DNA of 31,317 bases from an archaeon (GCA_041657425.1 JBBABY010000013.1:1-31317); one strand, 5' to 3'. Shown: positions 1-31,317, counted from the stretch's first letter. Numbers and translations are program-made. Notes: generated by a model from the letters alone, not told the origin.

Positions 1-1660
1 TTGGTTCAGAAATAATAAGTGGAGTATTTTCAGAATATATTCCTGCAATGGTTTCAATTATTGGAACAACTGTTTCCTGACCAACAAGCATCTTAGCAGT
101 CATCGTATAACTATTTGGTAGAGAATTAGTCTCTAATTTTATATTTGTATTTAATCCATCGTAAGATATAGATGTAAAATCAAATGTTGCACTATAATAT
201 GGGCATTTATGCGCATTTCCATCAAAAAGTGAAAGGTTACAAGTTCCACTTGGAGGGTTATAAAAATATAAATCTTTGTTTGTACTATTGCTTGAATATT
301 GTGCTAAATTACAACGCTCAACATTATTTTGTTCAAATGTAATTCCTGAATGACTAAGTATATCACTACAAATATTTAAATCAGAATCTGATTGAGGATT
401 ATTATATAAATCATTATATTTTTCTGAAATTTTAGTTTCATCAACATGATATATTCCAAAACCACCATAAGTGCTATCACCTCTTAAAAACATACAAGCA
501 TCTAGATTATTTGGATCATTAATATTTCTGTACCTATTCTCAACAATAAAATATTCTTGTTCACTCATATTGTTATTTCTTAAAATAACTGCGTCTGGAT
601 AATCGTTTATGCTTCTTAAACTTATTTCTTTATTGCTGTCTATTGTTAATTCTATTGGATTATGAATCCAATCTAAAAAATATCTTGACCAAACATCAAG
701 ATTAATGGGATTAATAAAACAATACCCCCTATTAGATTCGCTAATAGAATTATTCATCATTGTGACACCATTCATTGGGCCATTACTAGGTGCGCCATTA
801 GTTATTGAATATAAATCAAATAACCCAAGAATATGTGCAAATTCATGAGTTGCAAGTTCTATTGAAAAATTATTAAAATCAGATTGCGTACTTTTTTCTG
901 GGACAAATGCAACATTACCTAAATATTTTCCATCTACTGGATTAGAATTATATTGTTTTAATATTCTAGTTTGTGGCCATATTCCTATTGAAGAATTAAC
1001 GCCAACACCAGGATAAATTAAAATTACGCCATCTAATCTCTCATCATTATTATAATCATACTGTGTAAAATCAACATACGGATCAAATAAATTCATAGAA
1101 TGTATTGCTAATTGAAATTCAGTCGCTGCATTATCAGCATAATATGAAAATGGATGTGGTGCTTCTCTCCAATCATAAACATCAAAAATAATATTTAAAT
1201 CTCCATAGGATTGCTTTGTATAGTATTTGCTTACGCTTATTCCAGAATATCCTGGAATAGAATAATTATTACTGTTAAATGCGTTGTTGATATCTGCCCA
1301 TGAAGTTAAAGATGAGTTCCTATCTGAAAATTTTACTAACAATACTGGTATCTTTATTGTCCCTGATAGTGGTGCAGTTCCCCAAAGATTTGAAACTCCT
1401 GAATTTCTATTTTTTGAGGCATTATTTCTTAATAACTGTTTATATTGTTCTGTGGTTATTCCCATTTCCTTTAGTAATACTTCTTCTGGGGGATAAAATA
1501 CATCTTGATAATTATTTATTCCTAAAGCGTCTATTTCTTCTACTTGTAAAACTTCTAAAGAATTAGACTCTGATTTTTCTGGATTTATAATTTCAGAAGC
1601 TGCAAATATATTTGATAATATTAATATAAAAAATATACCTAAAACAATTCTTGGATTCAT
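1..1660 (-). CDS. Secreted M6-like (immune inhibitor A type) zinc metalloprotease, paralog A; C-terminus runs off the window
   Basis: Absent from the ORF track because no stop lies in the window. Hand translation from ATG 1660 gives MNPRIVLGIFFILILSNIFAAS (Sec-type signal), then ATHEFAHILGLFDLY (HExxH plus LGLxDLY as in peptidase M6), then TAKMLVGQETVVP. I translated the start and bases 298 to 2; the middle is inferred open because the track lists no minus-strand ORF there. Colinear with the 29467..31317 protein. Alternative in-frame ATG at 1678. Confidence 0.8.
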   Translation of the reverse strand, partial: MNPRIVLGIFFILILSNIFAASEIINPEKSESNSLEVLQVEEIDALGINNYQDVFYPPEEVLLKEMGITTEQYKQLLRNNASKNRNSGVSNLWGTAPLSGTIKIPVLLVKFSDRNSSLTSWADINNAFNSNNYSIPGYSGISVSKYYTKQSYGDLNIIFDVYDWREAPHPFSYYADNAATEFQLAIHSMNLFDPYVDFTQYDYNNDERLDGVILIYPGVGVNSSIGIWPQTRILKQYNSNPVDGKYLGNVAFVPEKSTQSDFNNFSIELATHEFAHILGLFDLYSITNGAPSNGPMNGVTMMNNSISESNRGYCFINPINLDVWSRYFLDWIHNPIELTIDSNKEISLRSINDYPDAVILRNNNMSEQEYFIVENRYRNINDPNNLDACMFLRGDSTYGGFGIYHVDETKISEKYNDLYNNPQSDSDLNICSDILSHSGITFEQNNVERCNLAQYSSNSTNKDLYFYNPPSGTCNLSLFDGNAHKCPYYSATFDFTSISYDGLNTNIKLETNSLPNSYTMTAKMLVGQETVVPIIETIAGIYSENTPLIISEP

Positions 1661-1753
1661 AAATAGATTATAAATCATTGGGTTTTTAAATATTAACTCA
1701 ATTGATTTTCTAATTATCTTATCTAAATAAATATTATAAATCTATTCGTTTAT

Positions 1754-1778
1754 AAAAATCTGAAATATTTCTATTTCA
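1754..1778 (-). terminator. Hairpin plus T5, candidate terminator for the 879-aa gene
   Basis: Minus strand reads TGAAATA-GAAA-TATTTCA (7-bp stem, 4-nt loop; 1761..1778) followed by GA TTTTT (1754..1758), about 90 nt after the stop at 1868. Confidence 0.3.
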
Positions 1779-1840
1779 CAAAGTTTAAATAAAGAAATCG
1801 TAGATAATTTCGCCAAACAACAATATTACACTAAAATTTT

Positions 1841-1869
1841 AAGATGTGTTTTTTTATTATTCACATCTT
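1841..1869 (-). terminator. Hairpin overlapping the stop codon of the 879-aa gene
   Basis: AAGATGTG (1862..1869 on minus) pairs with CACATCTT (1841..1848), an 8-bp stem with a 13-nt A-rich loop, followed by AAAATTTT. Function uncertain. Confidence 0.2.
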
Positions 1870-4507
1870 ATCTAAACTTTAGTGGTTTATAATTTGTTTG
1901 TATTGGACAATATTCAAATATATTTGTCCAAGATGTTACCTTAGAAACATTCCAATTACTTATATTTTGATTAAAACTTGTGGCCCAAAACATAAACGCC
2001 ATATTTGTAACCTTCGAAGTATCCCAATTACTTATATCTTGATTAAAGGCATAAGCCAATTGAAACATACTACTCATGTCTATAACTTTTGAAGTATTAA
2101 AATCTAAAGGTTGATTAAAATTAGATGCCCCCACAAACATAGCAGACATATTCATTACATTTGAAGTGTTAAAATCTAGTGGTTGATTAAAGTCAGTAGC
2201 GTTGCGAAACAGGGCAAACATAGAACTTACCTTTGAAGTATCAAAATTTAAAGGCTGATTAAAACTAGACGCTCCCGCAAACATAGCGTCCATATTAATT
2301 ACATTTGAAGTGTTAAAATCTAATGGTTGATTAAAACTAGAAGCAGAATAAAACATGTTATCCATATAAGTTACATTTGAAGTATCAAAATTTAAAGGCT
2401 GATTAAAACTAGATGCCTCTTCAAACATATTTGACATAGCCGTAACATTTGAAGTATCCCATTCGTTTATTCTTGGAATATCCGTTAATGACCAACATCC
2501 ACTAAACATATAAGACATATCTGTAATTTCACTTGTATCTAAAATATCTGTTGCAGTTATAATTAAATTACTTGCATTAGAAAAATCTCCGTTTTGACCT
2601 AGTATTAAAGATCCCCATTGAGAGATTTCTTCTATCTTTAAAGCATCTAATGTATACTTTAAATCACGATTATAAAATTGGAATCCATCAATCGTTCCTG
2701 TTATTGTTACTGTGTATACTCCTGGAACACTATAAGTATGTACACCCTGTCCTGAATATACTCCGTTGTTTTCAAACAATTCTCCAGAAGTTACATGAGA
2801 GGTTGTTCCGTCTCCCCAATCAACTATAAAATCATAATTTCCACTAGATATTAAAGGCAAAATAATCTGATTATTTTCGCTTGATCCAGATCCATCATAA
2901 TTTGTATCCCATTTAGAAATAAATGATAAAGATGAAGGGACTATTTCTTCTGAATCTGTTCTTAAATATGGATACCCATTATTAATTGTAGAATTTATAT
3001 CCCACACATTTACAAAATCCCAATTATTAAATGTAATTTTTTGTTTCATTTGGGAAGTTGTCTTACCTAATCCAATTACAGAATTTTGCTGATTAGAACT
3101 CTCAGTGTCCCAAAAATTATTAGTAGATGCTATAAGATTTTTACCACCACCATATGTGTGTCCAGCCATATTTAATCCAATAACTAACCCTGTAGAATAA
3201 GTATTTATTACGGTTGAGTTTCCCATAATCCCTATTAATCCTGCAGTTGCATTATCTCCTGTAACGCTTCCTGTTGCATAACTATTATATATATTCCCGC
3301 TTGTTAAATATCCAACTAATCCTCCGACAGTATGAATCCCATTCACATCTCCTGTTGCATAACTTTTTGAAATTATTGAAGTTAAATAAGGACCATTGTT
3401 AAAAGTGCCTATTAATCCCCCAATCCAATCTGCTCCTGTAACTTGACAACTAGAACTAGATCTTGAAATATTTCCATAACCTGCCCCAATTAATCCTCCA
3501 ATTGCAACACCACTTTTTCCTCCAGAAACTATCCCTGTCACATGAACATTATCAATTAAAGAATATTCTACTATTTGTCCAACTAAACCTCCAACAAACA
3601 TATTTCCACTTATTTTTATATCCTCTAAAAATAAATTTTTTATTGTTGCATCCTCTATTGCACTAAATAAACCAACATCACTATTTTCTGGGGTATCTAT
3701 TGTTAAATTTGTAATCCTATGATTATCGCCATCAAAAAAACCAGTAAATCTCTCTACTCCCGATTCTCCTATTGGTATAAAATCTACACCAGATAAATTT
3801 ATATCTGCACCTAAAATATATTCTCCTGATAACACTGTTCTTATCACTTCTAAATCATCTGCATTACAAATTACAAACTTTTCTATATCTTCATTAAAAC
3901 CTGATACACAAATGTCTATTTGCGAACAATCAGAGGGACAAGAATCAATAGTCTCTCCTGCATCACATTCTAAATCAAAATTACATTGATTTACAGAACA
4001 ATCAGAGGGACAAGAATCAATAGTCTCTCCTGCATCACCATCACAATCTCCATTCCCACAAGTAAAAAATCCTACACCACAATCTTCCGAACAATTAAAA
4101 CCTGTTTCTCCAAGGTCTGAATTACAAGTGCCATCTCCACAAAAAGGAACAGGATCTCCATCTCCACCACCGCCAGTTCCATCATCATCTCCACCGGTTC
4201 CTCCACCGCCAGTGCCACCGTTACCACCACTACCACCAGCGCTAGTGCCTCCTCCGGTTGCCATGTTTGTTTGATCTACACCATCATAAATAATTGATTT
4301 ATCAAAACTACTTTCTATGTCGCTTGTCTTATTATTGTCTTGCTTTGACCCTGAAGAACCAGTTATCTTTTCTCTTATACTTCCAAAATATAAAGCTCCA
4401 AAAATTATTACTCCAATAACTAATACACCAAATATTAATAACACTTCTAAAGCTGCTTGTCCTTTCTTTGTTACTTTCTTATGTTTTGTTTTATTCATAA
4501 ATATCAT
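1868..4507 (-). CDS. Large surface adhesin with class III (type IV pilin-like) signal peptide, Gly spacer, CPxDC cysteine modules, GLUG motifs and DUF285/BspA-type repeats
   Basis: 879-aa ORF. N-terminus (MIF)MNKTKHKKVTKKG|QAALEVLLIFGVLVIGVIIFGALYF. Gly-rich run GGGTSAGGSGGNGGTGGGG. Cysteine modules CGDGTCNSDLGETGFNCSEDC and CGNGDCDGDAGETIDSCPSDC. Repeated VGGLVGQ/IGGLIGAG/IGGLIGTF/VGGLVGYL motifs. DWGDGTTSHV..HTYSVPGVYTVTITG domain. At least 8 copies of FNQPL.F.TS.V..M..MF. ATG at 4507 or 4498. Confidence 0.85.
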   Translation of the reverse strand: MIFMNKTKHKKVTKKGQAALEVLLIFGVLVIGVIIFGALYFGSIREKITGSSGSKQDNNKTSDIESSFDKSIIYDGVDQTNMATGGGTSAGGSGGNGGTGGGGTGGDDDGTGGGGDGDPVPFCGDGTCNSDLGETGFNCSEDCGVGFFTCGNGDCDGDAGETIDSCPSDCSVNQCNFDLECDAGETIDSCPSDCSQIDICVSGFNEDIEKFVICNADDLEVIRTVLSGEYILGADINLSGVDFIPIGESGVERFTGFFDGDNHRITNLTIDTPENSDVGLFSAIEDATIKNLFLEDIKISGNMFVGGLVGQIVEYSLIDNVHVTGIVSGGKSGVAIGGLIGAGYGNISRSSSSCQVTGADWIGGLIGTFNNGPYLTSIISKSYATGDVNGIHTVGGLVGYLTSGNIYNSYATGSVTGDNATAGLIGIMGNSTVINTYSTGLVIGLNMAGHTYGGGKNLIASTNNFWDTESSNQQNSVIGLGKTTSQMKQKITFNNWDFVNVWDINSTINNGYPYLRTDSEEIVPSSLSFISKWDTNYDGSGSSENNQIILPLISSGNYDFIVDWGDGTTSHVTSGELFENNGVYSGQGVHTYSVPGVYTVTITGTIDGFQFYNRDLKYTLDALKIEEISQWGSLILGQNGDFSNASNLIITATDILDTSEITDMSYMFSGCWSLTDIPRINEWDTSNVTAMSNMFEEASSFNQPLNFDTSNVTYMDNMFYSASSFNQPLDFNTSNVINMDAMFAGASSFNQPLNFDTSKVSSMFALFRNATDFNQPLDFNTSNVMNMSAMFVGASNFNQPLDFNTSKVIDMSSMFQLAYAFNQDISNWDTSKVTNMAFMFWATSFNQNISNWNVSKVTSWTNIFEYCPIQTNYKPLKFR
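1900..2540 (-). repeat. Coding tandem array of about 72-nt (24-aa) DUF285-type units with a 144-nt higher-order repeat
   Basis: tttgaagtatcaaaatttaaaggctgattaaaactaga occurs identically starting at 2232 and 2376 (144 nt apart). Protein repeats are SSFNQPL(N/D)F(D/N)TS(N/K)V..M..MF. Array boundaries are approximate. Confidence 0.8.
3924..4038 (-). repeat. 43-bp perfect direct repeat (2 copies, 72-nt period) inside the cysteine-module region
   Basis: gaacaatcagagggacaagaatcaatagtctctcctgcatcac occurs at 3924..3966 and again at 3996..4038. It encodes the duplicated DAGETIDSCPSDCS peptide. Confidence 0.9.
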
Positions 4508-4598
4508 TATTTAAATTGTAAAATATTATAAATATAAAACAAACAACAATATTTAAAGTTTTGGTTTTGAAAAAATAGAAGAAAACTAATGAAAGAAA

Positions 4599-5324
4599 TT
4601 ACTTCTTCCAATAATCATCAAAATGAGATGTTAATGCTTTCATTAAACTTGGATTGTTTTTTAAAATTGTTAAATGATATGTTTCTTTTGGCATTGATAA
4701 ATCGTTTAATGACATAACTACTTTATTTTTATCAATAATAAAAGCATCCATTGAATGTTCTCTTTCTTGCATTGTGAAATTCTTTGGAAGATCGTATTGC
4801 TTAGTGTTTGGCTTTGATATTAATTTTACTGCTAAATCTGGTTTATCATAAATACTTTTAAAAGCATCTATTCTTTCATCAAAATGTGTAAAACCAGTTA
4901 TCTCTTTTTTTGCGCCTTCAAATTCTTGAGATAATAATTTATTATAATCTTTTAAACTTTTTACTTGTAATATCTTTTCTTGAGCACCATTTACTTGACC
5001 TGCCCAAATTTCTTTACTTAAAACTTCTTTAACGTGTTTATCAAGAACTGATAATTGATTTTGCTTTGCATCTAAAAGATATTTAAAAATCTCAGTTGGG
5101 TCTATTACCTTATATTTTTTAGGTCTACCATATACTTCTAGAACAAGACCTTTCTCTTTTAGTTTATCTAAAACATCGTAAATTCTGGTCTTTGGAATTT
5201 CTGCATTTCTACTAATATGTGGAGCATCTGCTTCTACAAAATTAAATAAAGTAGTTAATGTTCTTGCCTCATATTCTGTAAGACCAAAATCTAATAACAA
5301 ACTTAATATTTTACTATTTTGCAT
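4599..5324 (-). CDS. TrmB-family transcriptional regulator (N-terminal winged HTH plus C-terminal domain)
   Basis: 241 aa. GLTEYEARTLTTLFNFVEADAPHISRNAEIPKTRIYDVLDKLKEKGLVLEVYGRPKKYKVIDP resembles the TrmB wHTH. The C-terminus ends ..LMKALTSHFDDYWKK. GTGA motif 7 nt upstream of the ATG. Confidence 0.75.
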   Translation of the reverse strand: MQNSKILSLLLDFGLTEYEARTLTTLFNFVEADAPHISRNAEIPKTRIYDVLDKLKEKGLVLEVYGRPKKYKVIDPTEIFKYLLDAKQNQLSVLDKHVKEVLSKEIWAGQVNGAQEKILQVKSLKDYNKLLSQEFEGAKKEITGFTHFDERIDAFKSIYDKPDLAVKLISKPNTKQYDLPKNFTMQEREHSMDAFIIDKNKVVMSLNDLSMPKETYHLTILKNNPSLMKALTSHFDDYWKK

Positions 5325-5366: not shown

Positions 5367-6383
5367 CTATTCTTTTGCTTCTGTTTTTTCAGATTTCTCT
5401 GATTTTACATGCTTTTCTGCTTTCGCATGTGCTTCTGCTTTCGCATGTGCTTCTGCTTTTGCAGGAGCTTCTGTTGCTACAGGGGCATCTACAGGCTTAT
5501 TTTCTGTTGTTGCTGCAGGAGCAACAGCAGCTGCAGGAGTAATTAATGATGGCCTTCTTACATATGGTCTTCTAGGAGCATCGCCAGTTGGTCTTCTACC
5601 GCCAACTGTTGGTTTTCTGCCAGCTAATGCTTTAGCAGAAACTTTTCTAACTCTCTTTCCTGGAAGAGGTTGTTCTTCATCAACTTCCTTTTCTCCATTT
5701 TCGCTATTATAAACTAAGTCTTCAACAGAATATGCATAATCTTTATCTGATTTTATTATTCCATTTTTTAATTCTAATTCTCTAATTAATAACCAAAAGA
5801 ATAATGCTACTGATTTTCTTCCTTTGTTATTATATGGTACAATTAAATCAATGTTTCTTGTGTTACTTGAAGTAGTACATAAACCAATAACTGGAATATT
5901 TGCAGTTGTTGCTTCAACAATTGCTTGTCTATCAACATTAGGATCTGCAATAAATACTAATTTTGGTTCTATGAAATGTTCTGATTCAGGGTTTGTGAAT
6001 GTTCCTGGAATAAATCTATTTAATTTTGATTTGTAACCAAATGTTTGTTCAAGGATTTTAACTCCTGGAAGTGCATATTTCTTTCTTGAAATAAAAACAA
6101 TATCTGTTGGTTCATATTTAGAAATAAAATCGATTGCAATTTTTATTCTCTTATCAATTATTTGAACATCCATTACATTAATTTTATCACTTCTTGATTT
6201 AAAAACAAATTTACGCATTGGACCGTTTTTATATTTTGTTCCAATATGTATTCCGTTCTTTAGATATAAATCAACATTAACAAGAGTTCTATTTTGTGTT
6301 CTGTTTTCTGTTGGTCTATTCTCAGTTGGTGTTTCTTTAACTGTTCTTGGTTTTATAGTTGTATTCTCCATTTTTATCCACAT
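5367..6383 (-). CDS. rps2: 30S ribosomal protein uS2 with long N- and C-terminal low-complexity extensions
   Basis: Core NGIHIGTKYKNGPMRKFVF..IVFISRKKYA..VFIADPNVDRQAIVEATTANIPVIGLCTTSS matches uS2. It is preceded by TENRPTENRTQNRT and followed by about 100 aa of Pro/Ala/Lys-rich tail with (AKAEAH) repeats. Second ATG at 6371 is also possible. Confidence 0.9.
   Translation of the reverse strand: MWIKMENTTIKPRTVKETPTENRPTENRTQNRTLVNVDLYLKNGIHIGTKYKNGPMRKFVFKSRSDKINVMDVQIIDKRIKIAIDFISKYEPTDIVFISRKKYALPGVKILEQTFGYKSKLNRFIPGTFTNPESEHFIEPKLVFIADPNVDRQAIVEATTANIPVIGLCTTSSNTRNIDLIVPYNNKGRKSVALFFWLLIRELELKNGIIKSDKDYAYSVEDLVYNSENGEKEVDEEQPLPGKRVRKVSAKALAGRKPTVGGRRPTGDAPRRPYVRRPSLITPAAAVAPAATTENKPVDAPVATEAPAKAEAHAKAEAHAKAEKHVKSEKSEKTEAKE
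5417..5460 (-). repeat. 18-bp tandem repeat (about 2.4 copies) encoding AKAEAH units in the uS2 tail
   Basis: ctgctttcgcatgtgctt occurs at 5417..5434 and 5435..5452, then a partial copy ctgctttt at 5453..5460. Confidence 0.9.
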
Positions 6384-6384
6384 T

Positions 6385-6579
6385 TTAATTATACTTCATA
6401 ATATCATCAATAACTTCAACATGAGTCAAAAACATTCTTCTACAGCAATATTTATTTATGCCTAAGATATTAAGTGCATCTTCCGCACTTTTCTTTTCTT
6501 GAGTCGTTAATCTAACATACTCATCATATTTGTCAGCTACAACCTGACCACAAGAAAAACATCTTACTGGACATATCAT
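6385..6579 (-). CDS. rpoN: DNA-directed RNA polymerase subunit N (Rpo10)
   Basis: MICPVRCFSCGQVV...KYCCRRMFLTHV is the zinc-binding Rpo10 signature. I use ATG 6579 (GGTGA 7 nt upstream, embedding the rps9 TGA stop) instead of the track's GTG at 6621, which overlaps rps9. Confidence 0.9.
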   Translation of the reverse strand: MICPVRCFSCGQVVADKYDEYVRLTTQEKKSAEDALNILGINKYCCRRMFLTHVEVIDDIMKYN

Positions 6580-6586
6580 AATTATT

Positions 6587-6988
6587 TCACCTTTTTGAAT
6601 GTTGCTTTTTCTTTCTAGCACCTTTACCTAATTGGTGCTTTTGTTCTTTTTGTCTAACATCATCAACAAGAAGATGTCTATCATACTTCATTATTTTTTC
6701 TTTAACTTTTTCTTTATTGTTTGCAGACAATACTGCTTTAGCAATACAGGATCTTGTTGCTTGAACTTGAGACATTACTCCGCCGCCCTTTACATTAATA
6801 AAAAAATCAAGCTTTGCAGTTTCTTCATCAAGAAGAATCATTGGTTCTCTAACAAGCCCTTGCTTATAACCACCATAATATGCTTCTAATGGTGTTCCGT
6901 TAATATGAACTTTACCAGTTCCTGTTCTTGCCATACATCTTGCAATTGCAGTTTTTCTGGATGCTTTTACTAAATAGTTTTTTACCAT
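6587..6988 (-). CDS. rps9: 30S ribosomal protein uS9
   Basis: GKVHINGTPLEAYYG...INVKGGGVMSQVQATRSCIAKA..., ending in the basic tail ..KKKQHSKR typical of uS9. Confidence 0.93.
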   Translation of the reverse strand: MVKNYLVKASRKTAIARCMARTGTGKVHINGTPLEAYYGGYKQGLVREPMILLDEETAKLDFFINVKGGGVMSQVQATRSCIAKAVLSANNKEKVKEKIMKYDRHLLVDDVRQKEQKHQLGKGARKKKQHSKR

Positions 6989-7003
6989 AATTTTTCACAT
7001 CTT

Positions 7004-7420
7004 TTAAATTTTTAATTTTGCACCTAATAATTTACAAATTTCGTTTAAACCCATTCCTTTTAATTTTGGTTTTTCTACTTCCTTTGGCATATCCTTAATA
7101 TAAGCCTCTGGAGCATCAATAAATACTTTTAAATTCTTTAATGCAGATTGTCCTCTTGAGTTTCTTGGTAGCATTCCTCTAACAGCAAACTTAACCATCT
7201 TATCTGGATATCTTGGATACTTTGCATTTTTTAATTGGTTTCCTTTTCCTTTTCTATGTGTTCTTTCTTTAAATCTTTCCATAATGTTTTCTCTAGAACC
7301 ACTAATCATTGCATCATTTGCATTAACAACAATTATCTTTTCATCAGATCTTAAAAGCTTAGAAGAAACTTCTGTACATAATCTTCCAAGTATTTTATTT
7401 TTTGCATTTAGTACTATCAT
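7004..7420 (-). CDS. rpl13: 50S ribosomal protein uL13
   Basis: MIVLNAKNKILGRLCTEVSSKLL..IIVVNANDAMISG..VRGMLPRNSRG matches uL13. GGTGA upstream. Confidence 0.93.
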   Translation of the reverse strand: MIVLNAKNKILGRLCTEVSSKLLRSDEKIIVVNANDAMISGSRENIMERFKERTHRKGKGNQLKNAKYPRYPDKMVKFAVRGMLPRNSRGQSALKNLKVFIDAPEAYIKDMPKEVEKPKLKGMGLNEICKLLGAKLKI

Positions 7421-7444
7421 ATATTTTCACCAAATAATTTTATT

Positions 7445-7798: not shown

Positions 7799-7838
7799 AA
7801 TCTTTCTCTTTTTTAATTTTTTTAAATTTTATTTTTTA

Positions 7839-7971: not shown

Positions 7972-7982
7972 AAAAGATTAAA

Positions 7983-23453: not shown

Positions 23454-23477
23454 ATTTGCATCAATACCTTTTTAATT

Positions 23478-24783: not shown

Positions 24784-24813
24784 GAAAAAAAGACCTCTAT
24801 CTAATAGAGATCT
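24784..24813 (-). terminator. Stem-loop plus oligo-T directly after, and overlapping, the stop of the 658-aa gene
   Basis: Minus strand AGATCTCTAT-TAG-ATAGAGGTCT (10-bp stem with one G-U pair; 24791..24813), followed by a T run of 6-7 and CCTTTCCTTTT. Confidence 0.45.
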
Positions 24814-26788
24814 AACTTTGGAGGGTACATCCGCTAATCAAAAATGTCTTTGAAAATCGTGATCCTGTTTTTATATCATAGGTTGTCATATTTATTTTTA
24901 TATTTGTTGGGGCCGTGCCTTTTGTAAAATCGCTAGTTATCCAAATTGGTGTTGGTGTCTGGCGATAGTTATAATTACCAGGAATACAACCAGTAGTTGG
25001 ATCTGATTCTAATCCTACATTTGCACACCAGTAATAATATCCTGCAGATTGTGTTGAAAACCAGGCATTATATTGCACATGGATATTATAAGTAGTAGAA
25101 GTAAAAGGGACAATTCCTGGCACAACTGTGTAAGTGCAAGCTTGCTGAGAAATATCTATATCCGATGAATTATTATAGAAGTTCATAATTGTTGCAGCCG
25201 CTCTAGCTTTATTAGAACTAGGATTAGCTAAATTCGTATATATTACCAAAATTCCTTTCTTCGTAGTCATTTTTTTAATATGTATCCTTTTTGTTAATGA
25301 ACCACTGCTATCTGTAGTTACTGTAAAATTATTACTTAAAGTTTCTCCAATTGTAGCTCCTACTATTGCTGATGACAAATCAGAACAATCAGACCAACCT
25401 GAAGGATCTGAATAACCTAGATATTCGTGCTCAGAATCGCTATAACCCATAGTACATTCTTTAATTGTAACTTTATAATTTTGATTTGGACCTCCAGAAC
25501 TTAATCGAAGATCTATTGGCACATATTTACCTATACCAATGTGTCTTCTATCTGGTCTGTAAGAACTATTTTGAGTGTAATCAGGAAATGGTGCATAATC
25601 AAATACTTTATAGCCAACTTCTGGTGGATATGTTGAAGAATATTCTGCTCCTGTTTTTCTCTCCCAAGTTGAATCAAATGTCTGATATGTAAGTAAATTT
25701 CTAAAAGCAAATGCTCCGAAATTATTAGATGCATAAATTGGCACATAATAAGTGTTACCATTACCATCATAAATCATATAGTATTTTCCAGTTACGGCAG
25801 TAAGTCCCGAAGCAGAATTATCTGTTTCTAAACTACCTATTCTATTTCTTAAATCTGAGCTTAAATGATCTATTTCGATACTTTCATTACTAATATCTAA
25901 ATATTCATTTGTAACATTAGTTATATTAAACTGCAAATTATCAAGATAAGTCATAACCTCTTCAGAAAAATGATTTAAATTAATTGCTCCAATTGCTATA
26001 TTATCTCCAATTATTGCGCCAGACTTTAATTTTATTTTTCCTGCGGTTTGTGAATATTGAGTTCCATTAATATAACATCCTGCATTTGGACAGGCAGTAA
26101 ATTGAGTAGGCAAAAAATCACTTAAAACAAGGCCTGATCCCCCTGTACCATTATTGATAGGTGTCCATACATAACTTCCTGACGACACATCAGAAGAAGA
26201 ACATTGTTTTAAAACACCGTCTACTACCATTATGTCCCCCTTACTATTAGAATTACAAATCCCCTGCGTACCTTCAATTTTTGACGTTAATTTATCAGCG
26301 CCAATTACATTTTCTGTAACATTTGGATTTGGCAAAACTATTGTTGTTTCAAGTAAATATGAAGGAGATGTATCTTGCTTTATTTTAACTTTAAAGTCTA
26401 ATGTAGTTGTGGTAGTTATTGGTGCAATAAAACCAGTAATTATTCCGTTCTTTAATCCACTTTTAATTAACTCTGCAGTTAAATTACTATTACTATAGAC
26501 TATCTGATTATTAGGAGAATAAATTTCTAAAGTACAGCCACTTGGAGCAACAGCAAAAAATAATTTTTCAAATAAATTACCTTGAGATAAATTGCCTCCA
26601 ATACCAGTATCATTTGTTGATGTTCCTGAACTCCAAGTTCCTGTTCCGCCAGAACAAGCCGCGTTTAACGCAGGAGTTATTACTAAATCACCAGTTATAC
26701 GATACTGTTTTGTTATAGATCCTGCAAAGATTAAATTTAAAGACAATAGTCCAATTACTAAAATTAATAATGTTTTTGAAATTTTCAT
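24812..26788 (-). CDS. Secreted protein of unknown function (658 aa, Sec-type signal peptide)
   Basis: MKISKTLLILVIGLLSLNLIFAG|S is a signal peptide. GGTGA lies 8 nt upstream of the ATG. The protein is Ser/Thr/Asn/Gly-rich with many Cys, and I recognise no family signature. Confidence 0.75.
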   Translation of the reverse strand: MKISKTLLILVIGLLSLNLIFAGSITKQYRITGDLVITPALNAACSGGTGTWSSGTSTNDTGIGGNLSQGNLFEKLFFAVAPSGCTLEIYSPNNQIVYSNSNLTAELIKSGLKNGIITGFIAPITTTTTLDFKVKIKQDTSPSYLLETTIVLPNPNVTENVIGADKLTSKIEGTQGICNSNSKGDIMVVDGVLKQCSSSDVSSGSYVWTPINNGTGGSGLVLSDFLPTQFTACPNAGCYINGTQYSQTAGKIKLKSGAIIGDNIAIGAINLNHFSEEVMTYLDNLQFNITNVTNEYLDISNESIEIDHLSSDLRNRIGSLETDNSASGLTAVTGKYYMIYDGNGNTYYVPIYASNNFGAFAFRNLLTYQTFDSTWERKTGAEYSSTYPPEVGYKVFDYAPFPDYTQNSSYRPDRRHIGIGKYVPIDLRLSSGGPNQNYKVTIKECTMGYSDSEHEYLGYSDPSGWSDCSDLSSAIVGATIGETLSNNFTVTTDSSGSLTKRIHIKKMTTKKGILVIYTNLANPSSNKARAAATIMNFYNNSSDIDISQQACTYTVVPGIVPFTSTTYNIHVQYNAWFSTQSAGYYYWCANVGLESDPTTGCIPGNYNYRQTPTPIWITSDFTKGTAPTNIKINMTTYDIKTGSRFSKTFLISGCTLQS

Positions 26789-26856: not shown

Positions 26857-28407
26857 TTATTCTGTAACATATACTGTTAATGTTCCATAAGGATTAGTAG
26901 TAGTTCCTGATGATTGATCAGCATATACTTTTAATAGGCCATAACCATTATTTTGCCAATAATCTGTATTATATCCTAATCCCCCCATTGGTAATGCACA
27001 AGCTTGAAGAACTCCATAACCTGATGCAAAACTATTACAATTACCTGATTTAAATAATAAATCATAACCTACATAAAAAAGTGTATATTTTCCATTAAAT
27101 ATTGCATTTACTGGTTTTAGATTATCTTGTGATTGATACATTGCTTTTGGACAAGTTGTAGGAAGTAATTTATAATACACATTTGTTCCATTTACAATAT
27201 CATAACCGGAAATTGCTCTAGTCAAATCAATATTACAATTAATACTGTCTGTAAAAGTAATAGTGGGATTTGTTAATAAATTTTGAGTCATACTTGCGAT
27301 TTTTATATTAAATTCTTCTCCAACATATTGAGTTGGGGGATTTATAGTTAAATAAGCCACAGTTGGATCAGATTTATAAATATTAATCATTTTCTCATCT
27401 TTGCTTTGAATAGAAATTCCATCTATTACTTTTGTGGCATATACTATTACTTTCTGTTCTCCTATAATTTCTGGCAAAGTTAATGTAGCTAAATCAAAAG
27501 AATAATTACAAGACTTATCTACAGATACAAATCTATCTCCAATATGCCATTCACAAGAAATTCCGGTAGTTCCAAAATCAAGTTCTGTAGCAGTTAATTG
27601 GATACTTTGATTATTAAAATATGCTTGTCCTTCAATTGGGCTAGTGATTGAAATATTAAAAACTGGAGTTGGTGGTGGAGGAATTAACCCAGAAGTGATT
27701 ATTTTAGTAATTGCCCCAGATAATGTTGGAGTTGTTAATTCATTTGGGGTAACTCCCGAAAATGAAAATGTATATGTTCCGGGAGTTTTACAAGTAAAAT
27801 CAAATGTATTCTCAATAGATCCTGCTGGAATCGTTTGATTTAATCTTCCTAAATTAGTAAATGTATTATTATATACTCCATTATAAGAACAATTTGAAGT
27901 TGGAGACCCTGTAGAATCAGAGATATCTAATTTGCCAACATTTCCTAAATCATAACTTGAATTCGCAACTTTTACTTTTATTCCAAAACTCGCATCTATT
28001 GCCGAATTTCCTGTTGGATCTAATGTTAATTGTAAAGTTGCAAAATCTGGTATTGTATCAGGGCAGTCTATTGGACAAGATCCATAATTTTCCGAAGGAG
28101 GTAAACAAAGACCATCTCCACAGCTACAATCATCTGGACAATTGCCATTATCTTCTCCTAATGAAGTTTCACAATTACCATTTCTATTACAAATTACTGA
28201 TGGAATGTTTGGAACATTTGGATGACCTGTTCCATCACCTAACTGATCTTCAAAACCATCAAGGACGCTTGCAACTTTTGAACTATCAGAAATATTTTTA
28301 TTTATACTACTAATATAATATGCTCCAAAAACTATTGAACCAATTACAACTACCCCAAGAATTGCTAAAACTTCAATAGAAACTTGTCCTTTTTTTCCTG
28401 ATAACAT
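26857..28407 (-). CDS. Surface protein with class III (type IV pilin-like) signal peptide and CPxDC cysteine modules (516 aa)
   Basis: MLSGKKG|QVSIEVLAILGVVVIGSIVFGAYY fits the QxSxExxxL-type class III signal. It is followed by CNRNGNCETSLGEDNGNCPDDCSCGDGLCLPPSENYGSCPIDC, a PPPP linker and beta-rich Ig-like segments. AGGTG upstream. Confidence 0.8.
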   Translation of the reverse strand: MLSGKKGQVSIEVLAILGVVVIGSIVFGAYYISSINKNISDSSKVASVLDGFEDQLGDGTGHPNVPNIPSVICNRNGNCETSLGEDNGNCPDDCSCGDGLCLPPSENYGSCPIDCPDTIPDFATLQLTLDPTGNSAIDASFGIKVKVANSSYDLGNVGKLDISDSTGSPTSNCSYNGVYNNTFTNLGRLNQTIPAGSIENTFDFTCKTPGTYTFSFSGVTPNELTTPTLSGAITKIITSGLIPPPPTPVFNISITSPIEGQAYFNNQSIQLTATELDFGTTGISCEWHIGDRFVSVDKSCNYSFDLATLTLPEIIGEQKVIVYATKVIDGISIQSKDEKMINIYKSDPTVAYLTINPPTQYVGEEFNIKIASMTQNLLTNPTITFTDSINCNIDLTRAISGYDIVNGTNVYYKLLPTTCPKAMYQSQDNLKPVNAIFNGKYTLFYVGYDLLFKSGNCNSFASGYGVLQACALPMGGLGYNTDYWQNNGYGLLKVYADQSSGTTTNPYGTLTVYVTE

Positions 28408-28474: not shown

Positions 28475-29503
28475 TTATTTATTCATTTCTTGAGTTGGAA
28501 TTAATTTCTTTTCTGCCTTAACTTTATTATTATTTTTTCTTGTAATTGTATAATTTTCAGTCATAAGCTCACTAGATTCCCAAATTATTGTTGCTTCTAA
28601 TAAATCTGATAGACTCTTTACACTAGCTGTACCTCTATTATCTAATGGACTTCCAAATGTAGGACCTACATAAAGATATGCTTTTGCTTTTAATGTTTTT
28701 GATGAACTTATTGTTATTGGACTGGTGTATGTTTGACTTGTTCTTAAATTTGGAATACTCCCATCAAGAGTATACTTTATTATTGCACCTTCTGTTTCAG
28801 TCATTAACTCCACAGTTATTGGTTGAGAATAATTTCCTCCATCAATGCTTGCTTCTGGTGGATATACTGCTGGACTATTTGTAACAGTAACTGTATAATT
28901 TCGTGTGCCAGTTACTGAACTTACTGTATAGTTTACTGAATTAATAAAACTTTGAGAGATCCCACTTTCTGGATAAACAGTACACCCCTCTTCAACTATT
29001 ATTATTGGAGTTAAACCACTTCTATTTACTCCGTATGGAATGATTATATTTATTATATTGTAATCATTATTTATTACTGTTTGACTTTCTACTTCTTGAA
29101 AAGTAAAACTTAATATTAAGTTTTGTGGAGCGTTACCTGTAGTATAATTGTAAGTTACTACTTGGCTTGGTGCATATCCTGTTTTGTATGCAATTAAATT
29201 TAAAGTAAAATTATGATCTATCATTATTGGGGCGGCATATATTGTTGAAAACTCATTTGGAGTTGTTCCATTTATTGTGTATCTAATTGTTGCGCCTGCA
29301 GTTGTAGTATACGCTTCAGTTATAGTTCCATAATTATAATATCCTGATTGAAGAGTGGATATTGGATTGTTTACAACTAATACTTGATAATTATAAGTTG
29401 CTGTTGCACTTGGCTCGTAACCTGTCTTGTAAGCTTTTGCTTTAATATTTGTTGTTTGAAAAATATTTATTGCTGTTGAATAAATGCTTGATGATTCAGT
29501 TGG
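28475..29503 (-). CDS. C-terminal remainder of the M6-like protease paralog B, in the -1 frame (CHB_HEX_C-like repeats); not an independent gene
   Basis: The frame is open from 29503 to the stop at 28475. Hand translation gives PTESSSIYSTAINIFQTTNIKAKAYKTGYEPSATATYNY..AGATIRYTINGTTPNEFSTIYAAPIMIDHNF... This continues the repeat interrupted at 29504. The track's ATG at 29224 is an internal Met. Confidence 0.7.
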   Translation of the reverse strand, partial: PTESSSIYSTAINIFQTTNIKAKAYKTGYEPSATATYNYQVLVVNNPISTLQSGYYNYGTITEAYTTTAGATIRYTINGTTPNEFSTIYAAPIMIDHNFTLNLIAYKTGYAPSQVVTYNYTTGNAPQNLILSFTFQEVESQTVINNDYNIINIIIPYGVNRSGLTPIIIVEEGCTVYPESGISQSFINSVNYTVSSVTGTRNYTVTVTNSPAVYPPEASIDGGNYSQPITVELMTETEGAIIKYTLDGSIPNLRTSQTYTSPITISSSKTLKAKAYLYVGPTFGSPLDNRGTASVKSLSDLLEATIIWESSELMTENYTITRKNNNKVKAEKKLIPTQEMNK

Positions 29504-31317
29504 CTACTGTTATCCAGAGTATATCTGATTGTTGCACCAGATGTTGCTGTGCTTAAAATTACTTGACTATTATAATCTATTACTCCAGAAACCTGATTTG
29601 CTGTTGGAGTTGCAACTGTTCCAGTAACTGTATAAACACTTGTCATTACATCACTAACATAAAAATTATTTTTTTTAGCAATTGCTTTTATTGTTGTTAC
29701 TGCATTAGCAGGAGCAGTTATTGGGGTTGTATAAATGGATGATGAAGTTGTTGGAGTGCTTCCATTTGTAGTATAATAAATTGTTGCGCCAGGAGTTGAT
29801 GTACTTAAAGTTATTTGAGTTGGAACATAATACACTTGAGCCGAAGATGGGCTAGTTACTGGAGTTGCCGTTTCTTCACCAACAAGCATCTTTGCAGTCA
29901 TTATTGATTGATTAGATGAAGAAATTGCTGTAAACCTTATCTTTGGATTTTGAACACCACTATACGTACTAGTTGTTCTATCCAAAATCCCGTATGGTGC
30001 ACACAAATATTGGTTTTCATCGAAATATTTAAATGAATCACAACTATTTATTATGTCATCAAAATATAAATCATTTGGGAAAATTAAAATACTTGTAGAA
30101 TTAATTGTATTTTCTTCATATAATACTCCTGGCCAAGAAACTGTATCATTAAAATAATTATTATCTCTATCCCAGTTTACCCAATTGTTTGGATAGTCAA
30201 ATTCAATTTTGTTTTCATCAACATGATAGATTGCAAATCCACCATAAGTGGTTGGAGCATTAATAAACATACAATTGTCTAAATTACTAGAATCGCTATG
30301 ATTTCTATAACGATTTTCAATTATAAAATATTCTCTTGCACCCATATTGCTATTTCTTAAAATCACTGCGTCTGGATAATCGTTTATACTTCTTAGACTT
30401 ATTTCTTTATTGCTGTCTGTTGTTAATTCTATTGGAGCAACCCAACCTAAAAAATATCTAGACCAAACATCAAGATTAATTGGCTTATTTAAACAATATA
30501 CTTCTTCAAACATCATCATTGACATTCCTGACAATGGACCATTATCTATCTGCCCTTGTGGGCCAATAGCATACAAATCTGGAAGACCAAGAACGTGTGC
30601 AAACTCATGAGTAGTTACAGAGATTTCAAATTGATTTGATTGTCTTACTCCCTTTTCTGGAACTAGTGCTACATTCCCTAGATATTTCCCGTCTACTATA
30701 TTTTGAGTATATTGTTTTAATATTCTAGTGTGTGGCCAAACAGCAGTTGGTGCAATTCCCCCAACACCTGGATAAATTATAACAAATCCATCTATTCTTC
30801 CATCATTGTCATTATCATATTGACTAAAATTAACATTACTGCCGCCAGTAGTGGAATTAAATAAATTTATAGAATCTAATACTAATTGAAAATTTCTAGA
30901 ACTGTTTAAACTATACCAAGAATAGGTTTGCGGTGCAGTTCGCCAATCGTAAACATCATAAATAATATTTAAATCTCCATAGGATTGCTTTGTATAATAT
31001 TTGCTTACACTTATTCCTTGGCCATTTAAATAATTAGAACTATTAAATGATTCATTTATTGCGCTTTGTGTTTGAGTAGACAGATTGTCTGTAAATTGAA
31101 CTAGAAGAACCGGGATATGTATTGTCCCTGTTAATGGAGCAGTTCCCCAAATGTTTGTTACACTTGAATTACGATTTATTGGAGCTTTCCTTTTTAATAA
31201 TTGTTTATAAGTTCTTAAATTTAAACCTTGCTTTCTTAATTCGCTTTCTGGAGGATATAAAACATCATTATATTTCTCTAGAACAGTCATTGCATTATCT
31301 TCTGAACCCTTTGTTAT
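29467..31317 (-). CDS. M6-like zinc metalloprotease paralog B. The N-terminus runs off the window, and the reading frame is broken at about 29503 by a 1-nt frameshift
   Basis: TTHEFAHVLGLPDLY (HExxH), colinear with paralog A. The frame stays open upstream of the track's Met (ITKGSEDNA-MTVLEKY), and no signal peptide is in the window. C-terminal GATIYYTTNGSTPTTSSSIYTTPI repeats resemble chitobiase/hexosaminidase C-terminal domains. Confidence 0.8.
   Translation of the reverse strand: MTKGSEDNAMTVLEKYNDVLYPPESELRKQGLNLRTYKQLLKRKAPINRNSSVTNIWGTAPLTGTIHIPVLLVQFTDNLSTQTQSAINESFNSSNYLNGQGISVSKYYTKQSYGDLNIIYDVYDWRTAPQTYSWYSLNSSRNFQLVLDSINLFNSTTGGSNVNFSQYDNDNDGRIDGFVIIYPGVGGIAPTAVWPHTRILKQYTQNIVDGKYLGNVALVPEKGVRQSNQFEISVTTHEFAHVLGLPDLYAIGPQGQIDNGPLSGMSMMMFEEVYCLNKPINLDVWSRYFLGWVAPIELTTDSNKEISLRSINDYPDAVILRNSNMGAREYFIIENRYRNHSDSSNLDNCMFINAPTTYGGFAIYHVDENKIEFDYPNNWVNWDRDNNYFNDTVSWPGVLYEENTINSTSILIFPNDLYFDDIINSCDSFKYFDENQYLCAPYGILDRTTSTYSGVQNPKIRFTAISSSNQSIMTAKMLVGEETATPVTSPSSAQVYYVPTQITLSTSTPGATIYYTTNGSTPTTSSSIYTTPITAPANAVTTIKAIAKKNNFYVSDVMTSVYTVTGTVATPTANQVSGVIDYNSQVILSTATSGATIRYTLDNSSQLNHQAFIQQQ

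What the first reader, a model, noticed from the sequence alone, without database searches (positions are those of the whole stretch)
1..31317. Paralogous protease plus pilin-signal-adhesin modules flank the ribosomal superoperon, with patchy near-identical DNA about 29.8 kb apart
In transcription order the genes read: M6-like protease B, pilin-signal protein, secreted orphan, then the uL3..uS2 block, then TrmB, pilin-signal adhesin, M6-like protease A. The two protease genes are moderately diverged overall but contain two near-identical DNA tracts.
- 574..659 versus 30351..30436 differ at 4 of 86 nt by hand alignment.
- 1171..1243 versus 30945..31017 differ at 4 of 73 nt.
Such mosaic identity, including at third codon positions, suggests gene conversion between the copies. 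A repeated two-component surface module (zinc protease with glycan-binding-type repeats plus a pilin-anchored adhesin) next to a TrmB regulator may be an uncharacterised host-interaction or cell-surface remodelling system. Direct repeats flanking an essential locus are also structurally unusual.
Basis: partly seen in the sequence, partly recalled or inferred. Interest (0 to 1): 0.72.

Follow-up and report, generated by a model that had tools for sequence, protein, structure and literature searches.

The report
Gene conversion between archaeal surface-protease paralogues
Two old, diverged copies of a secreted zinc-protease gene sit at either end of the ribosomal-protein gene block of a tiny uncultured (DPANN-type) archaeon, and they have swapped two short DNA patches by gene conversion: a real but familiar kind of multigene-family evolution.

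Summary
Two M6/InhA-like metalloprotease genes (1..1678 and 28475..31317, both minus strand) bracket the uL3..uS2 block. Each lies next to a large protein with an archaeal class III (pilin-type) signal peptide.

The copies share 54% amino-acid and 66.5% nucleotide identity. They contain the two reported tracts, with exactly 4/86 and 4/73 mismatches.

The tracts lie on the two most conserved motifs of the family. With this genome's AT-rich codon usage, about 85% identity is expected there without any conversion. That does not explain 95%:
- With the amino acids fixed and codons drawn from the genome's usage, p=0.001 and 5e-5.
- No other old pair among 14 homologues from related genomes exceeds 83% in the tracts, including pairs that are closer overall.
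- dS falls to 0.23 in the tracts against 0.82 outside, in this pair only.
- Triplet tests show a mosaic.

Short-tract ectopic gene conversion is therefore supported.

A third paralogue in the same MAG is also a mosaic, and so are paralogues in another genome. The protease-plus-pilin-signal-protein pairing and both flanking positions recur in related Iainarchaeota, although what occupies the site downstream of TrmB varies between genomes.

Function as a host-interaction or surface module is inferred, not shown. This is a new member of a known kind, of moderate interest.

The parts
1..1678 (-). Left M6/InhA-like metalloprotease. The N-terminal 559 codons are in the window. The full gene is 1044 aa in L003, with a Sec signal peptide, an HEFAHILGLFD zinc motif and C-terminal CHB_HEX_C/Fn3_assoc repeats.
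574..659 (-). Near-identical tract 2, left copy. It encodes PIELTIDSNKEISLRSINDYPDAVILRN. The high-identity zone extends to about 548..730 across a 3-nt indel.
1171..1243 (-). Near-identical tract 1, left copy. It encodes GISVSKYYTKQSYGDLNIIFDVYDW. The high-identity zone is about 1139..1243 and holds the 37-nt longest exact match (1186..1222).
1868..4507 (-). 879-aa surface protein. It has a class III (pilin-type) signal peptide (KKG/QAALEVL), Cys-rich modules, an M26_N/GLUG region and DUF285/PARCEL repeats.
4599..5324 (-). TrmB-family HTH regulator. It is conserved directly after uS2 across Iainarchaeota, with or without the module.
5367..24464 (-). Ribosomal-protein superoperon, uL3 to uS2. 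It includes SecY, an EMC3-like protein, SUI1, RpoD and RpoN.
24812..26788 (-). 658-aa Sec-signal orphan protein with no family match. A homologue follows the pilin516 homologue in L091.
26857..28407 (-). 516-aa protein with a class III signal peptide (KKG/QVSIEVLAIL) and Cys-rich modules. No Pfam or NCBIfam match, and only 5 homologues were found.
28475..31317 (-). Right M6/InhA-like metalloprotease, a single gene of about 990 aa. Its N-terminal 43 codons, including the signal peptide, lie beyond the window and are seen in L086. It has an HEFAHVLGLPD zinc motif and CHB_HEX_C/Fn3_assoc repeats.
29505..29505 (-). 1-nt deletion relative to L001 and L002 (AACAGT[G]AGCC). It splits the right protease into two ORFs in this contig.
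30351..30436 (-). Near-identical tract 2, right copy.
30945..31017 (-). Near-identical tract 1, right copy.

Best explanation
The window is a complete contig from an AT-rich DPANN archaeon, most likely of the Iainarchaeota/Diapherotrites.

It carries two members of a multi-copy family of secreted M6 (immune-inhibitor-A-like) zinc metalloproteases. Each has C-terminal CHB_HEX_C/Fn3-associated repeats. Each is paired with a gene for a large surface protein that has an archaeal class III (prepilin-type) signal peptide. One pair lies upstream of uL3. The other lies in a variable site between TrmB and L7Ae, downstream of uS2.

The two protease genes are old paralogues. Each has equally close or closer relatives in other genomes.

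The two ~75-85-nt near-identical tracts are products of non-crossover, short-patch ectopic gene conversion between in-genome paralogues, possibly by way of the third copy. The tracts lie on the two most conserved motifs of the family. There, amino-acid constraint plus AT-biased codon usage already keep the DNA at about 80-85% identity. That is where heteroduplex formation can start, and where a converted patch is selectively neutral.

A crossover between the two copies would delete the 29.8-kb ribosomal block, so only non-crossover outcomes can persist.

Shown here: the paralogy, the tract identity, the local dS drop, the mosaic structure, the recurrent gene pairing and the synteny.

Inferred, not shown: that the protease and the pilin-signal proteins act together at the cell surface, for example by attaching to and proteolytically remodelling a host or partner envelope.
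For: Tracts and genes:
- The tracts are exact as reported.
- The family is M6. The motif HEXXHXXGXXD is invariant in the alignment. TIGR03296 scores 125 bits against a 110.8 cut-off for the right copy. PF05547 matches. The top fold match is B. anthracis InhA2, 4yu5, E=4e-9.

Identity beyond constraint:
- In the 53 tract codons the left-right pair has 95% nt identity and 44/50 identical codons at degenerate sites with the same amino acid. Every other non-recent pair among 14 homologues has at most 83% and at most 0.74, including pairs with 64-77% aa identity outside the tracts.
- The in-genome control pair L009/L012 has 75.5%.
- NG86 dS is 0.23 inside the tracts and 0.82 outside for left-right. 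In eight other pairs compared, tract dS was not comparably reduced (0.9-1.7 in the old pairs against 0.8-1.6 outside; the recent in-genome pairs L008/L014 and L005a/b fell by less than twofold).
- The codon-usage null gives p=0.001 and p=5e-5.

Mosaic structure:
- In triplet tests, 25-42 informative sites inside the tracts group left with right, against 2-5 that group with the outgroup. Outside the tracts, right matches left at 153-191 sites against 178-241 for the outgroup (left as child: 113-182 for the outgroup). Fisher p runs from 1.8e-3 to 3e-8, and the max-segment permutation p from 0.0002 to 0.08, which does not depend on the chosen coordinates.
- With the tracts masked, the two copies are not sisters. 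Right ranks left 16th of 23 by nt identity outside the tracts and first inside.
- The third paralogue of the same MAG (P0002) is left-like over aa 55-85 (26 consecutive identical residues) and right-like elsewhere.
- In-genome paralogues of another genome are also mosaic.

Reproducibility and synteny:
- The sequences recur in other assemblies.
- The gene pairing and flanking positions recur in relatives.
Against: - The tracts are exactly the most conserved motifs, and about 85% identity is expected there without conversion. The excess is about 8 differences observed where roughly 25-30 would be expected.
- A permutation test of the longest run of identical codons is not significant (p=0.22).
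- When each pair picks its own best 25-codon window, some between-genome pairs reach 89-91%. The left-right excess is then z=3.3 rather than overwhelming.
- Two of the fourteen triplet max-segment tests are above 0.05.
- The DNA of the third paralogue could not be obtained, so donor and direction are unknown.
- Nothing here shows expression, secretion, proteolysis or any link to a host.
Confidence: 0.72

Rival explanations
1. No recombination. The tracts are simply the two most constrained peptide motifs, and extreme AT-biased codon usage makes the same codons recur.
For: The tracts coincide with the family's most conserved motifs. The expected same-codon rate from usage alone is already 0.56-0.60, and the expected best-window identity is about 85%. 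The longest-run test is not significant.
Against: The observed 94.7% in two separate windows exceeds the null (p=0.001 and p=5e-5). Other pairs under the same constraint and similar GC3, including an in-genome pair, reach only 61-83% in the same columns. The dS drop is specific to this pair. Triplet site patterns cluster.
Confidence: 0.1
2. The two copies were not converted by each other. Both were converted by the third in-genome paralogue (P0002), which lies just upstream of the right copy, or all three exchange patches in a network.
For: P0002 has tract 2 identical in amino acids to the left copy and tract 1 differing at one residue. It carries a 26-aa left-type block in an otherwise right-type gene. 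It belongs to the same MAG. The C-terminus of another protease lies upstream of the right copy in L086.
Against: Only the protein sequence of P0002 is available, so synonymous sites cannot be compared. This is a variant of the best explanation, not an alternative to conversion.
Confidence: 0.3
3. A recent duplication followed by rapid divergence everywhere except the two constrained motifs.
For: The same-codon rate outside the tracts (0.67) is slightly above the between-genome level (0.52-0.64), and overall nt identity is 5 SD above the codon-usage null.
Against: dS outside the tracts is 0.82, similar to between-genome pairs. The right copy is 57-68% identical to many proteins from other genomes but only 54% to the left copy. 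With the tracts masked, the copies fall in different clades.
Confidence: 0.05
4. An assembly or binning artefact: chimeric consensus between paralogues, or a misjoined contig.
For: The contig begins and ends inside the paralogues, and other assemblies break in the repeat-rich C-terminal region. The contig carries a 1-nt indel that other assemblies lack.
Against: The left copy including its tracts is identical in L003 (ENA assembly). The right copy is 100% identical over 1665 nt in L086, a JGI contig of a second MAG. Each tract still has 4 copy-specific differences. Exact matches are 37 nt at most. Both flanks are seen in other species.
Confidence: 0.03

Closest known systems
Ectopic (interlocus) gene conversion between paralogues in prokaryotes, including archaea. 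An example is the duplicated mtrA genes of methanogens (PMC4632066). Archaeal chaperonin paralogues and bacterial tuf genes are recalled from my own knowledge.
   Same: Old paralogues in one genome carry short segments with sharply lower synonymous divergence and a discordant phylogeny. The outcomes are non-crossover.
   Different: Here the genes encode secreted proteases in a multi-copy surface-protein family of a DPANN archaeon. The tracts are very short (about 75-180 nt) and confined to the most conserved motifs. At least three copies take part. Two of the copies bracket the ribosomal-protein superoperon.
Immune inhibitor A / MEROPS family M6 metalloproteases (Bacillus InhA1/InhA2, PDB 4yu5 and 4yu6; TIGR03296; PF05547).
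   Same: The HEXXHXXGXXD motif, profile matches, an N-terminal secretion signal and the best fold match.
   Different: Only 17-19% identity to InhA2. The host is archaeal. The C-terminal extensions are 3-6 CHB_HEX_C/Fn3_assoc repeats rather than the InhA VEG and MAM-like domains. The left copy scores just under the TIGR03296 cut-off. Activity is untested.
Archaeal type IV filament (TFF) pilin-like proteins and adhesin-like proteins with class III signal peptides (bioRxiv 10.64898/2026.04.22.720090; PF04021).
   Same: An N-terminal K-K-G/A | Q-x-S/A-x-E-x-L motif followed by a hydrophobic helix, fused to large, putatively adhesive domains.
   Different: The genes are not in a TFF assembly locus: no ATPase, platform protein or peptidase is nearby. 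They are instead paired with a secreted protease. PF04021 itself does not score on the window proteins.
Programmed antigenic-variation cassette systems (Neisseria pilE/pilS, Borrelia vlsE, Mycoplasma genitalium MgPa); recalled from my own knowledge.
   Same: Surface-related multigene families exchanging short patches by non-reciprocal recombination.
   Different: There are no silent or truncated donor cassettes, since all copies are full-length with signal peptide and active-site motif. Conversion homogenises the conserved core rather than diversifying variable regions.

Membership tests
MEROPS M6 / InhA-like metalloprotease (TIGR03296, PF05547) | Zinc-binding motif HEXXHXXGXXD | tested here: met
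   Left copy HEFAHILGLFD, right copy HEFAHVLGLPD. H237, E238, H241, G244 and D247 are invariant in 18 family members.
MEROPS M6 / InhA-like metalloprotease (TIGR03296, PF05547) | Profile match above the curated cut-off | tested here: met
   Right copy: TIGR03296 125.2 bits against 110.8, and PF05547 29.4 against 22. Left copy: PF05547 22.2 against 22, but TIGR03296 108.8 against 110.8, just below the cut-off.
MEROPS M6 / InhA-like metalloprotease (TIGR03296, PF05547) | InhA-type catalytic fold | tested here: inconclusive
   The AlphaFold model is poor (mean pLDDT 54.5). Foldseek's top three hits are B. anthracis InhA2 (4yu5, 4yu6) at E=4e-9 to 4e-8, but TM is only about 0.3. A sequence profile against the PDB finds 4yu5 at E=0.0057.
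MEROPS M6 / InhA-like metalloprotease (TIGR03296, PF05547) | Proteolytic activity | not testable with these tools
   Needs expression and an enzyme assay.
Archaeal class III (prepilin-type) signal peptide proteins (PF04021) | N-terminal [KR][GA]|Q-x-[SA]-x-E-x-x-x-L followed by an uncharged hydrophobic helix of about 20 residues | tested here: met
   KKGQVSIEVLAILGVVVIGSIVFG (26857..28407) and KKGQAALEVLLIFGVLVIGVIIFG (1868..4507). The same motif is in the partner ORFs of 12 related loci.
Archaeal class III (prepilin-type) signal peptide proteins (PF04021) | Pfam PF04021 profile match | tested here: not met
   No PF04021 match at E<=0.01 for either window protein. There is only a faint precomputed hit on the partner protein in distant locus L095.
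Archaeal class III (prepilin-type) signal peptide proteins (PF04021) | Cognate prepilin peptidase and assembly genes in the genome | not tested
Ectopic gene conversion between paralogues | Local drop in synonymous divergence, specific to the in-genome pair | tested here: met
   dS is 0.23 in the tracts and 0.82 outside. Other old pairs show 0.9-1.7 in the tracts and 0.8-1.6 outside.
Ectopic gene conversion between paralogues | Phylogenetic discordance between tract and flanks | tested here: met
   Each copy is the other's nearest sequence in the tracts (95% against at most 82%). Outside the tracts, left ranks only 16th of 23 for right. Triplet tests agree, as does the masked tree.
Ectopic gene conversion between paralogues | Identity not explained by amino-acid constraint plus codon usage | tested here: met
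   Simulation null: p=0.001 and p=5e-5. Binomial test for 44/50 against 0.564: p=1.5e-6, post hoc.
Ectopic gene conversion between paralogues | Sequences reproducible independently of one assembly | tested here: met
   L003 reproduces the left copy. L086 reproduces the right copy. Whether the read sets are fully independent is not known.
Programmed antigenic-variation cassette system | Silent or truncated donor cassettes feeding one expression locus | tested here: not met
   The left, right and P0002 copies are all full-length, with signal peptide and HEXXH motif.
Programmed antigenic-variation cassette system | Exchange concentrated in variable, surface-exposed regions | tested here: not met
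   The tracts lie on the most conserved motifs of the family.

The most novel reading that the evidence does not exclude
The protease plus class III signal surface-protein cassettes are a dedicated, recombination-shuffled toolkit that these ultra-small archaea use to attach to a partner cell and cut into its envelope. They occur in three or more copies around the translation supercluster of Iainarchaeota, and they exchange segments within genomes (this MAG and the L088/L014 genome). Segmental exchange among the copies would generate new protease and adhesin combinations, while conversion keeps the catalytic core uniform. Placement beside the ribosomal operons would give growth-coupled expression.
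Probability: 0.15. Interest if true: 0.65.

Novelty: new member of a known kind. Interest (0 to 1): 0.4.

Why it matters
This is a clean, checkable case of short-patch gene conversion between old paralogues in an uncultured DPANN archaeon. These organisms have tiny genomes, and how they maintain their DNA and vary their surfaces is poorly known.

It also defines a recurrent, unstudied gene pairing: a secreted M6 protease with glycan-binding-type repeats next to a large protein with a pilin-type signal. This pairing is a reasonable candidate for the cell-cell contact machinery of Iainarchaeota.

There is a practical lesson for MAG analysis as well. These paralogues and their repeats are where assemblies break, and one copy carries a probable indel error.

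Tried and rejected
- Fetching the DNA of the third in-genome paralogue P0002. Exact-protein look-ups of P0002 and its cluster mate P0091 found nothing. The metagenome scan returned only relatives at 68% identity or less. The three-way conversion analysis at synonymous sites could therefore not be done.
- Exact look-up of the 879-aa adhesin failed because gene callers used another start codon.
- The permutation test of the longest run of identical codons was not significant (p=0.22). It has little power because it ignores amino-acid changes.
- The structure prediction of the catalytic domain was poor (pLDDT 54.5). The tracts could not be mapped on a reliable structure, and the fold match is only supportive.
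- The 516-aa pilin-signal protein has no Pfam, NCBIfam or PDB match and only five homologues.
- I looked for both flanks in one long contig of a relative. The distant 671-kb Iainarchaeum contig has uS2-TrmB-L7Ae with no module, and its proteases lie elsewhere. Closer relatives L097 and L098 have only the adhesin in that site. The upstream end of those contigs could not be reached with the look-ups left.
- An antigenic-variation cassette reading was rejected (see the membership test).
- Bacterial promoter and terminator scans were not run, because they do not apply to archaea.
Full report
WHAT IS IN THE WINDOW

The window has about 30% G+C, and every gene of note is on the minus strand. In transcription order the genes are:
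- An M6-like metalloprotease, 28475..>31317 (the 'right' copy).
- A 516-aa protein with a class III signal peptide, 26857..28407.
- A 658-aa Sec-signal orphan, 24812..26788.
- The ribosomal superoperon from uL3 (23478..24464) to uS2 (5367..6383), with SecY, an EMC3-like protein, SUI1, RpoD and RpoN.
- A TrmB-family regulator, 4599..5324.
- An 879-aa class III signal protein with M26_N/GLUG and DUF285 (PARCEL) repeats, 1868..4507.
- A second M6-like metalloprotease, <1..1678 (the 'left' copy).

These assignments rest.

The window is an entire 31,317-bp contig held by JGI and by an NCBI MAG. Other assemblies of the same population extend it.
- L003 gives the full 1044-aa left protease, followed by a dCMP deaminase on the other strand and L7Ae-S28e-L24e.
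- L086 gives the missing N-terminus of the right protease (signal peptide MGSLLSQKIILSTLVILSLIFFLNIISA). Upstream of it lie an AAA_14/DUF4143-like ATPase and the C-terminus of yet another protease paralogue.

The ORFs 29467..31290 and 28475..29224 are one gene. This contig lacks a G at about 29505 that two other assemblies have.

TrmB homologues are named Ca. ainarchaeum or Diapherotrites by their sources. The nearest complete genome with the same local synteny is Ca. Forterrea. The organism is therefore most likely an Iainarchaeota-type DPANN archaeon. This is an inference.

THE OBSERVATION

The two tracts are exactly as reported: 4 mismatches in 86 nt and 4 in 73 nt. The repeat finder sees the same diagonals.

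Over 499 aligned codons the genes are 54% identical in amino acids and 66.5% in nucleotides. The tracts reach 95%. Tract 2 continues across a one-codon indel to about 548..730. The longest exact match is 37 nt. The C-terminal repeat regions are only 66-68% identical, and no further long identical stretch exists.

IS IT MORE THAN CONSTRAINT?

The tracts encode GISVSKYYTKQSYGDLNII[FY]DVYDW and PIELT.DSNKEISLRSINDYPDAVILRN. These are the two most conserved motifs of the whole subfamily.

In a genome with GC3 of about 0.15, two independent draws of a codon for the same amino acid agree 56-60% of the time. A simulation that keeps both protein sequences and draws codons from the window's usage gives a best 25-codon window of 84.7% on average. 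Most of the visual impression is therefore constraint plus codon bias. Four tests show an excess beyond that.

1. The same simulation almost never reaches the observed values. The best window is 94.7% (p=0.001) and the second-best, non-overlapping window is 94.7% (p=5e-5).

2. I collected the coding DNA of 12 (later 22) homologues from related MAGs and metagenome contigs. In the same 53 codons, left-right has 95.0% nt identity and 44/50 identical codons. Every other pair except one obviously recent tandem duplicate has at most 83% and at most 0.74. That includes pairs far more similar overall. It also includes L009/L012, two paralogues of one other genome with similar GC3 (75.5%; 0.68).

3. 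Nei-Gojobori dS for left-right is 0.23 in the tracts and 0.82 outside. In the old pairs compared, tract dS (0.9-1.7) equals flank dS (0.8-1.6).

4. I ran triplet tests with right or left as the 'child', the other copy as one 'parent' and a homologue from another genome as the other parent.
- Inside the tracts, 25-42 informative sites match the in-genome copy and 2-5 match the outgroup.
- Outside the tracts, the right copy matches left at 153-191 sites and the outgroup at 178-241; with left as the child the outgroup count is 113-182.
- A max-segment permutation that does not use the tract coordinates gives p between 0.0002 and 0.08, with 12 of 14 tests below 0.05.

Weaker points should be stated.
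- A longest-run test restricted to positions with identical amino acids is not significant (p=0.22).
- When each pair chooses its own best window, a few between-genome pairs reach 89-91%. The left-right excess is then z=3.3.

THE COPIES ARE OLD

The right copy is 57-68% identical to about 18 proteins from other assemblies, but only 54% to the left copy. With the tracts masked the two fall in different clades. Outside the tracts, left ranks 16th of 23 for right. A recent duplication with divergent flanks is therefore unlikely.

The sequences are not an artefact of one assembly. The left copy is identical in L003, and the right copy is identical over 1665 nt in L086, from a second MAG. Each tract also keeps four copy-specific differences.

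A THIRD COPY AND A GENERAL HABIT OF THE FAMILY

P0002 first looked like the closest orthologue of the right copy. It is in fact encoded by the same NCBI MAG: the protein accessions are 196 apart, on a 49-kb contig.
- It is right-like overall (68%).
- It carries a block of 26 consecutive residues identical to the left copy, where left and right differ at about half the positions.
- It shares tract 2 exactly with the left copy.

In another genome (L088, L008, L014), in-genome paralogues are also mosaics.
- One pair is 75-85% identical, then 100% identical over the last ~60 codons.
- Another pair is 85-97% identical, then 55-70%.

Segmental exchange among in-genome copies therefore looks like a property of this family, not a single accident.

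THE MODULE AND ITS POSITION

A large ORF starting with the motif KK[GA]Q[VIA][SA][IL]E[VIA]L plus a hydrophobic helix lies directly beside the protease in about 13 of 21 loci with enough flank. This includes a distant Iainarchaeum, where the partner also carries CHB_HEX_C repeats. This motif matches the class III signal pattern QxSxExxxL, which I recall from the PF04021 description.

Position upstream of uL3:
- It recurs in a 182-kb scaffold of another species. There, two to three protease copies, GLUG proteins and the same ATPase precede a 1000-aa class III protein and uL3.

Position after uS2-TrmB:
- It recurs in AMR_MDS_2477 and Ca. Forterrea as TrmB-protease-adhesin...L7Ae.
- Closer relatives L097 and L098 have only the DUF285 adhesin there.
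- A distant genome has TrmB directly followed by L7Ae.

The downstream 'flank' is therefore a variable island inside a larger translation supercluster. TrmB belongs to the conserved backbone rather than to the island.

MECHANISM

The best-supported reading is short-patch, non-crossover ectopic gene conversion among three or more paralogues. It is seeded where constraint and codon bias keep the DNA similar enough to pair. A crossover between the two direct copies would delete the ribosomal block and be lethal, so only conversions can be seen. This step is an inference.

From memory, not tested here: short, sometimes discontinuous conversion patches that need little homology have been described for Sulfolobus. 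Homologous recombination has been reported to shape the Ca. Forterrea population (PMC5905446, abstract as returned). Donor and direction cannot be decided without the DNA of P0002.

For function, several features make an extracellular proteolysis-plus-adhesion role plausible:
- the Sec signal peptides and the intact HEXXHXXGXXD motif;
- the InhA2 fold match (weak model);
- the glycan-binding-type repeats;
- the constant pairing with pilin-signal proteins.

For a DPANN archaeon the target could well be a partner cell's envelope. Nothing here tests that.

COMPARISON AND VERDICT

Gene conversion between paralogues is well known, in archaea as well (for example mtrA, PMC4632066). M6 proteases and class III signal adhesin-like proteins are known families.

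This case is not an antigenic-variation cassette system. There are no silent copies, and the exchange homogenises the conserved core.

What is new is the instance:
- the family, lineage and position;
- the very short tracts confined to conserved motifs;
- the three-copy network.

The gene-conversion interpretation is supported. The functional interpretation is plausible but untested. The claim of structural unusualness is overstated. This is a new member of a known kind, of moderate interest.

Noticed in passing
window 29505 (within 28475..31317, minus strand): This contig lacks one G (AACAGT[G]AGCC) that is present in two other assemblies (L001 from ENA, L002 from Logan). The loss splits the right protease into two ORFs. 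It is probably an assembly or consensus indel, or else a strain-level pseudogene.
   Followed up: yes
window 1 and 31317; L001, L002 and L086 ends at 29691, 29662 and 29653: The window is a whole contig, and both ends fall inside the protease paralogues. Three other assemblies break inside the CHB_HEX_C repeat region of the right copy. The last ~20 nt at the left end differ from L003 at 3 positions, which looks like contig-end noise.
   Followed up: partly
L086 1..2178 (upstream of window position 31317): Upstream of the right protease lie a 314-aa ATPase with no NCBIfam match, in the same position as the AAA_14/DUF4143 ATPase of L005, and the C-terminus of another protease paralogue, which ends in the same ...YTITRKNNN.KAEKK...QEM.K tail as the right copy. 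The same protease-ATPase-protease layout is in L005.
   Followed up: partly
P0002 (NCBI MFA5746167.1, 49,269-bp contig of the same MAG): A third in-genome protease paralogue. It is right-like overall, but has a block of 26 residues identical to the left copy near the N-terminus, and a left-type tract 2. Its DNA could not be retrieved.
   Followed up: partly
window 1934..2516 and 3924..4048 (in 1868..4507): The adhesin gene has five or more 72-nt (24-aa) DUF285/PARCEL repeats, and two 92%-identical Cys-rich CGDGxC...DC modules 72 nt apart. It also has a weak NCBIfam hit (E=4e-6, far below the cut-off) to PamR, a pilus-system protein of CPR bacteria.
   Followed up: no
window 5367..6383: uS2 is 338 aa long, with a low-complexity C-terminal tail rich in P, A, K and E (…KAEAHAKAEAHAKAEKHVKSEKSEK…). 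The relatives L097 and L098 also have a long uS2 (351 aa), whereas a distant Iainarchaeum has 267 aa.
   Followed up: no
L094, L097, L098, L012, L017 and L003, compared with window 1..5324: The site between TrmB and L7Ae-S28e-L24e is a variable island. It is empty in a distant Iainarchaeum, holds the adhesin only in L097 and L098, protease then adhesin in L012 and Forterrea, and adhesin then protease here. A dCMP deaminase on the opposite strand marks its far edge in the closer relatives.
   Followed up: yes
L088 (two tandem adhesin-protease modules), L008, L014: In another genome the protease paralogues are strongly mosaic: 100% nt identity over the last ~60 codons of an otherwise 75-85% identical pair, and an 85-97% then 55-70% pattern in another pair. 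This suggests frequent recombination in the family.
   Followed up: partly
L003 1..230 (window 7343..7573): The first ~230 nt of L003 are about 20% diverged from the window, while the remaining 7.3 kb is essentially identical. This is either a chimeric contig end or a strain-variable segment in the L18e/uL13 region.
   Followed up: no
window 26857..28407 and 24812..26788: The 516-aa pilin-signal protein belongs to a very small family (5 homologues in 5.8 billion proteins). It is followed by the 658-aa orphan here, and the homologues of both are adjacent in L091. Neither has any family or PDB match.
   Followed up: partly
L013, L015 (record titles): Contigs carrying close homologues of this archaeal protease are filed under a Cloacimonetes bacterium and an 'uncultured bacterium' MAG. 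These are probably mis-binned archaeal contigs.
   Followed up: no
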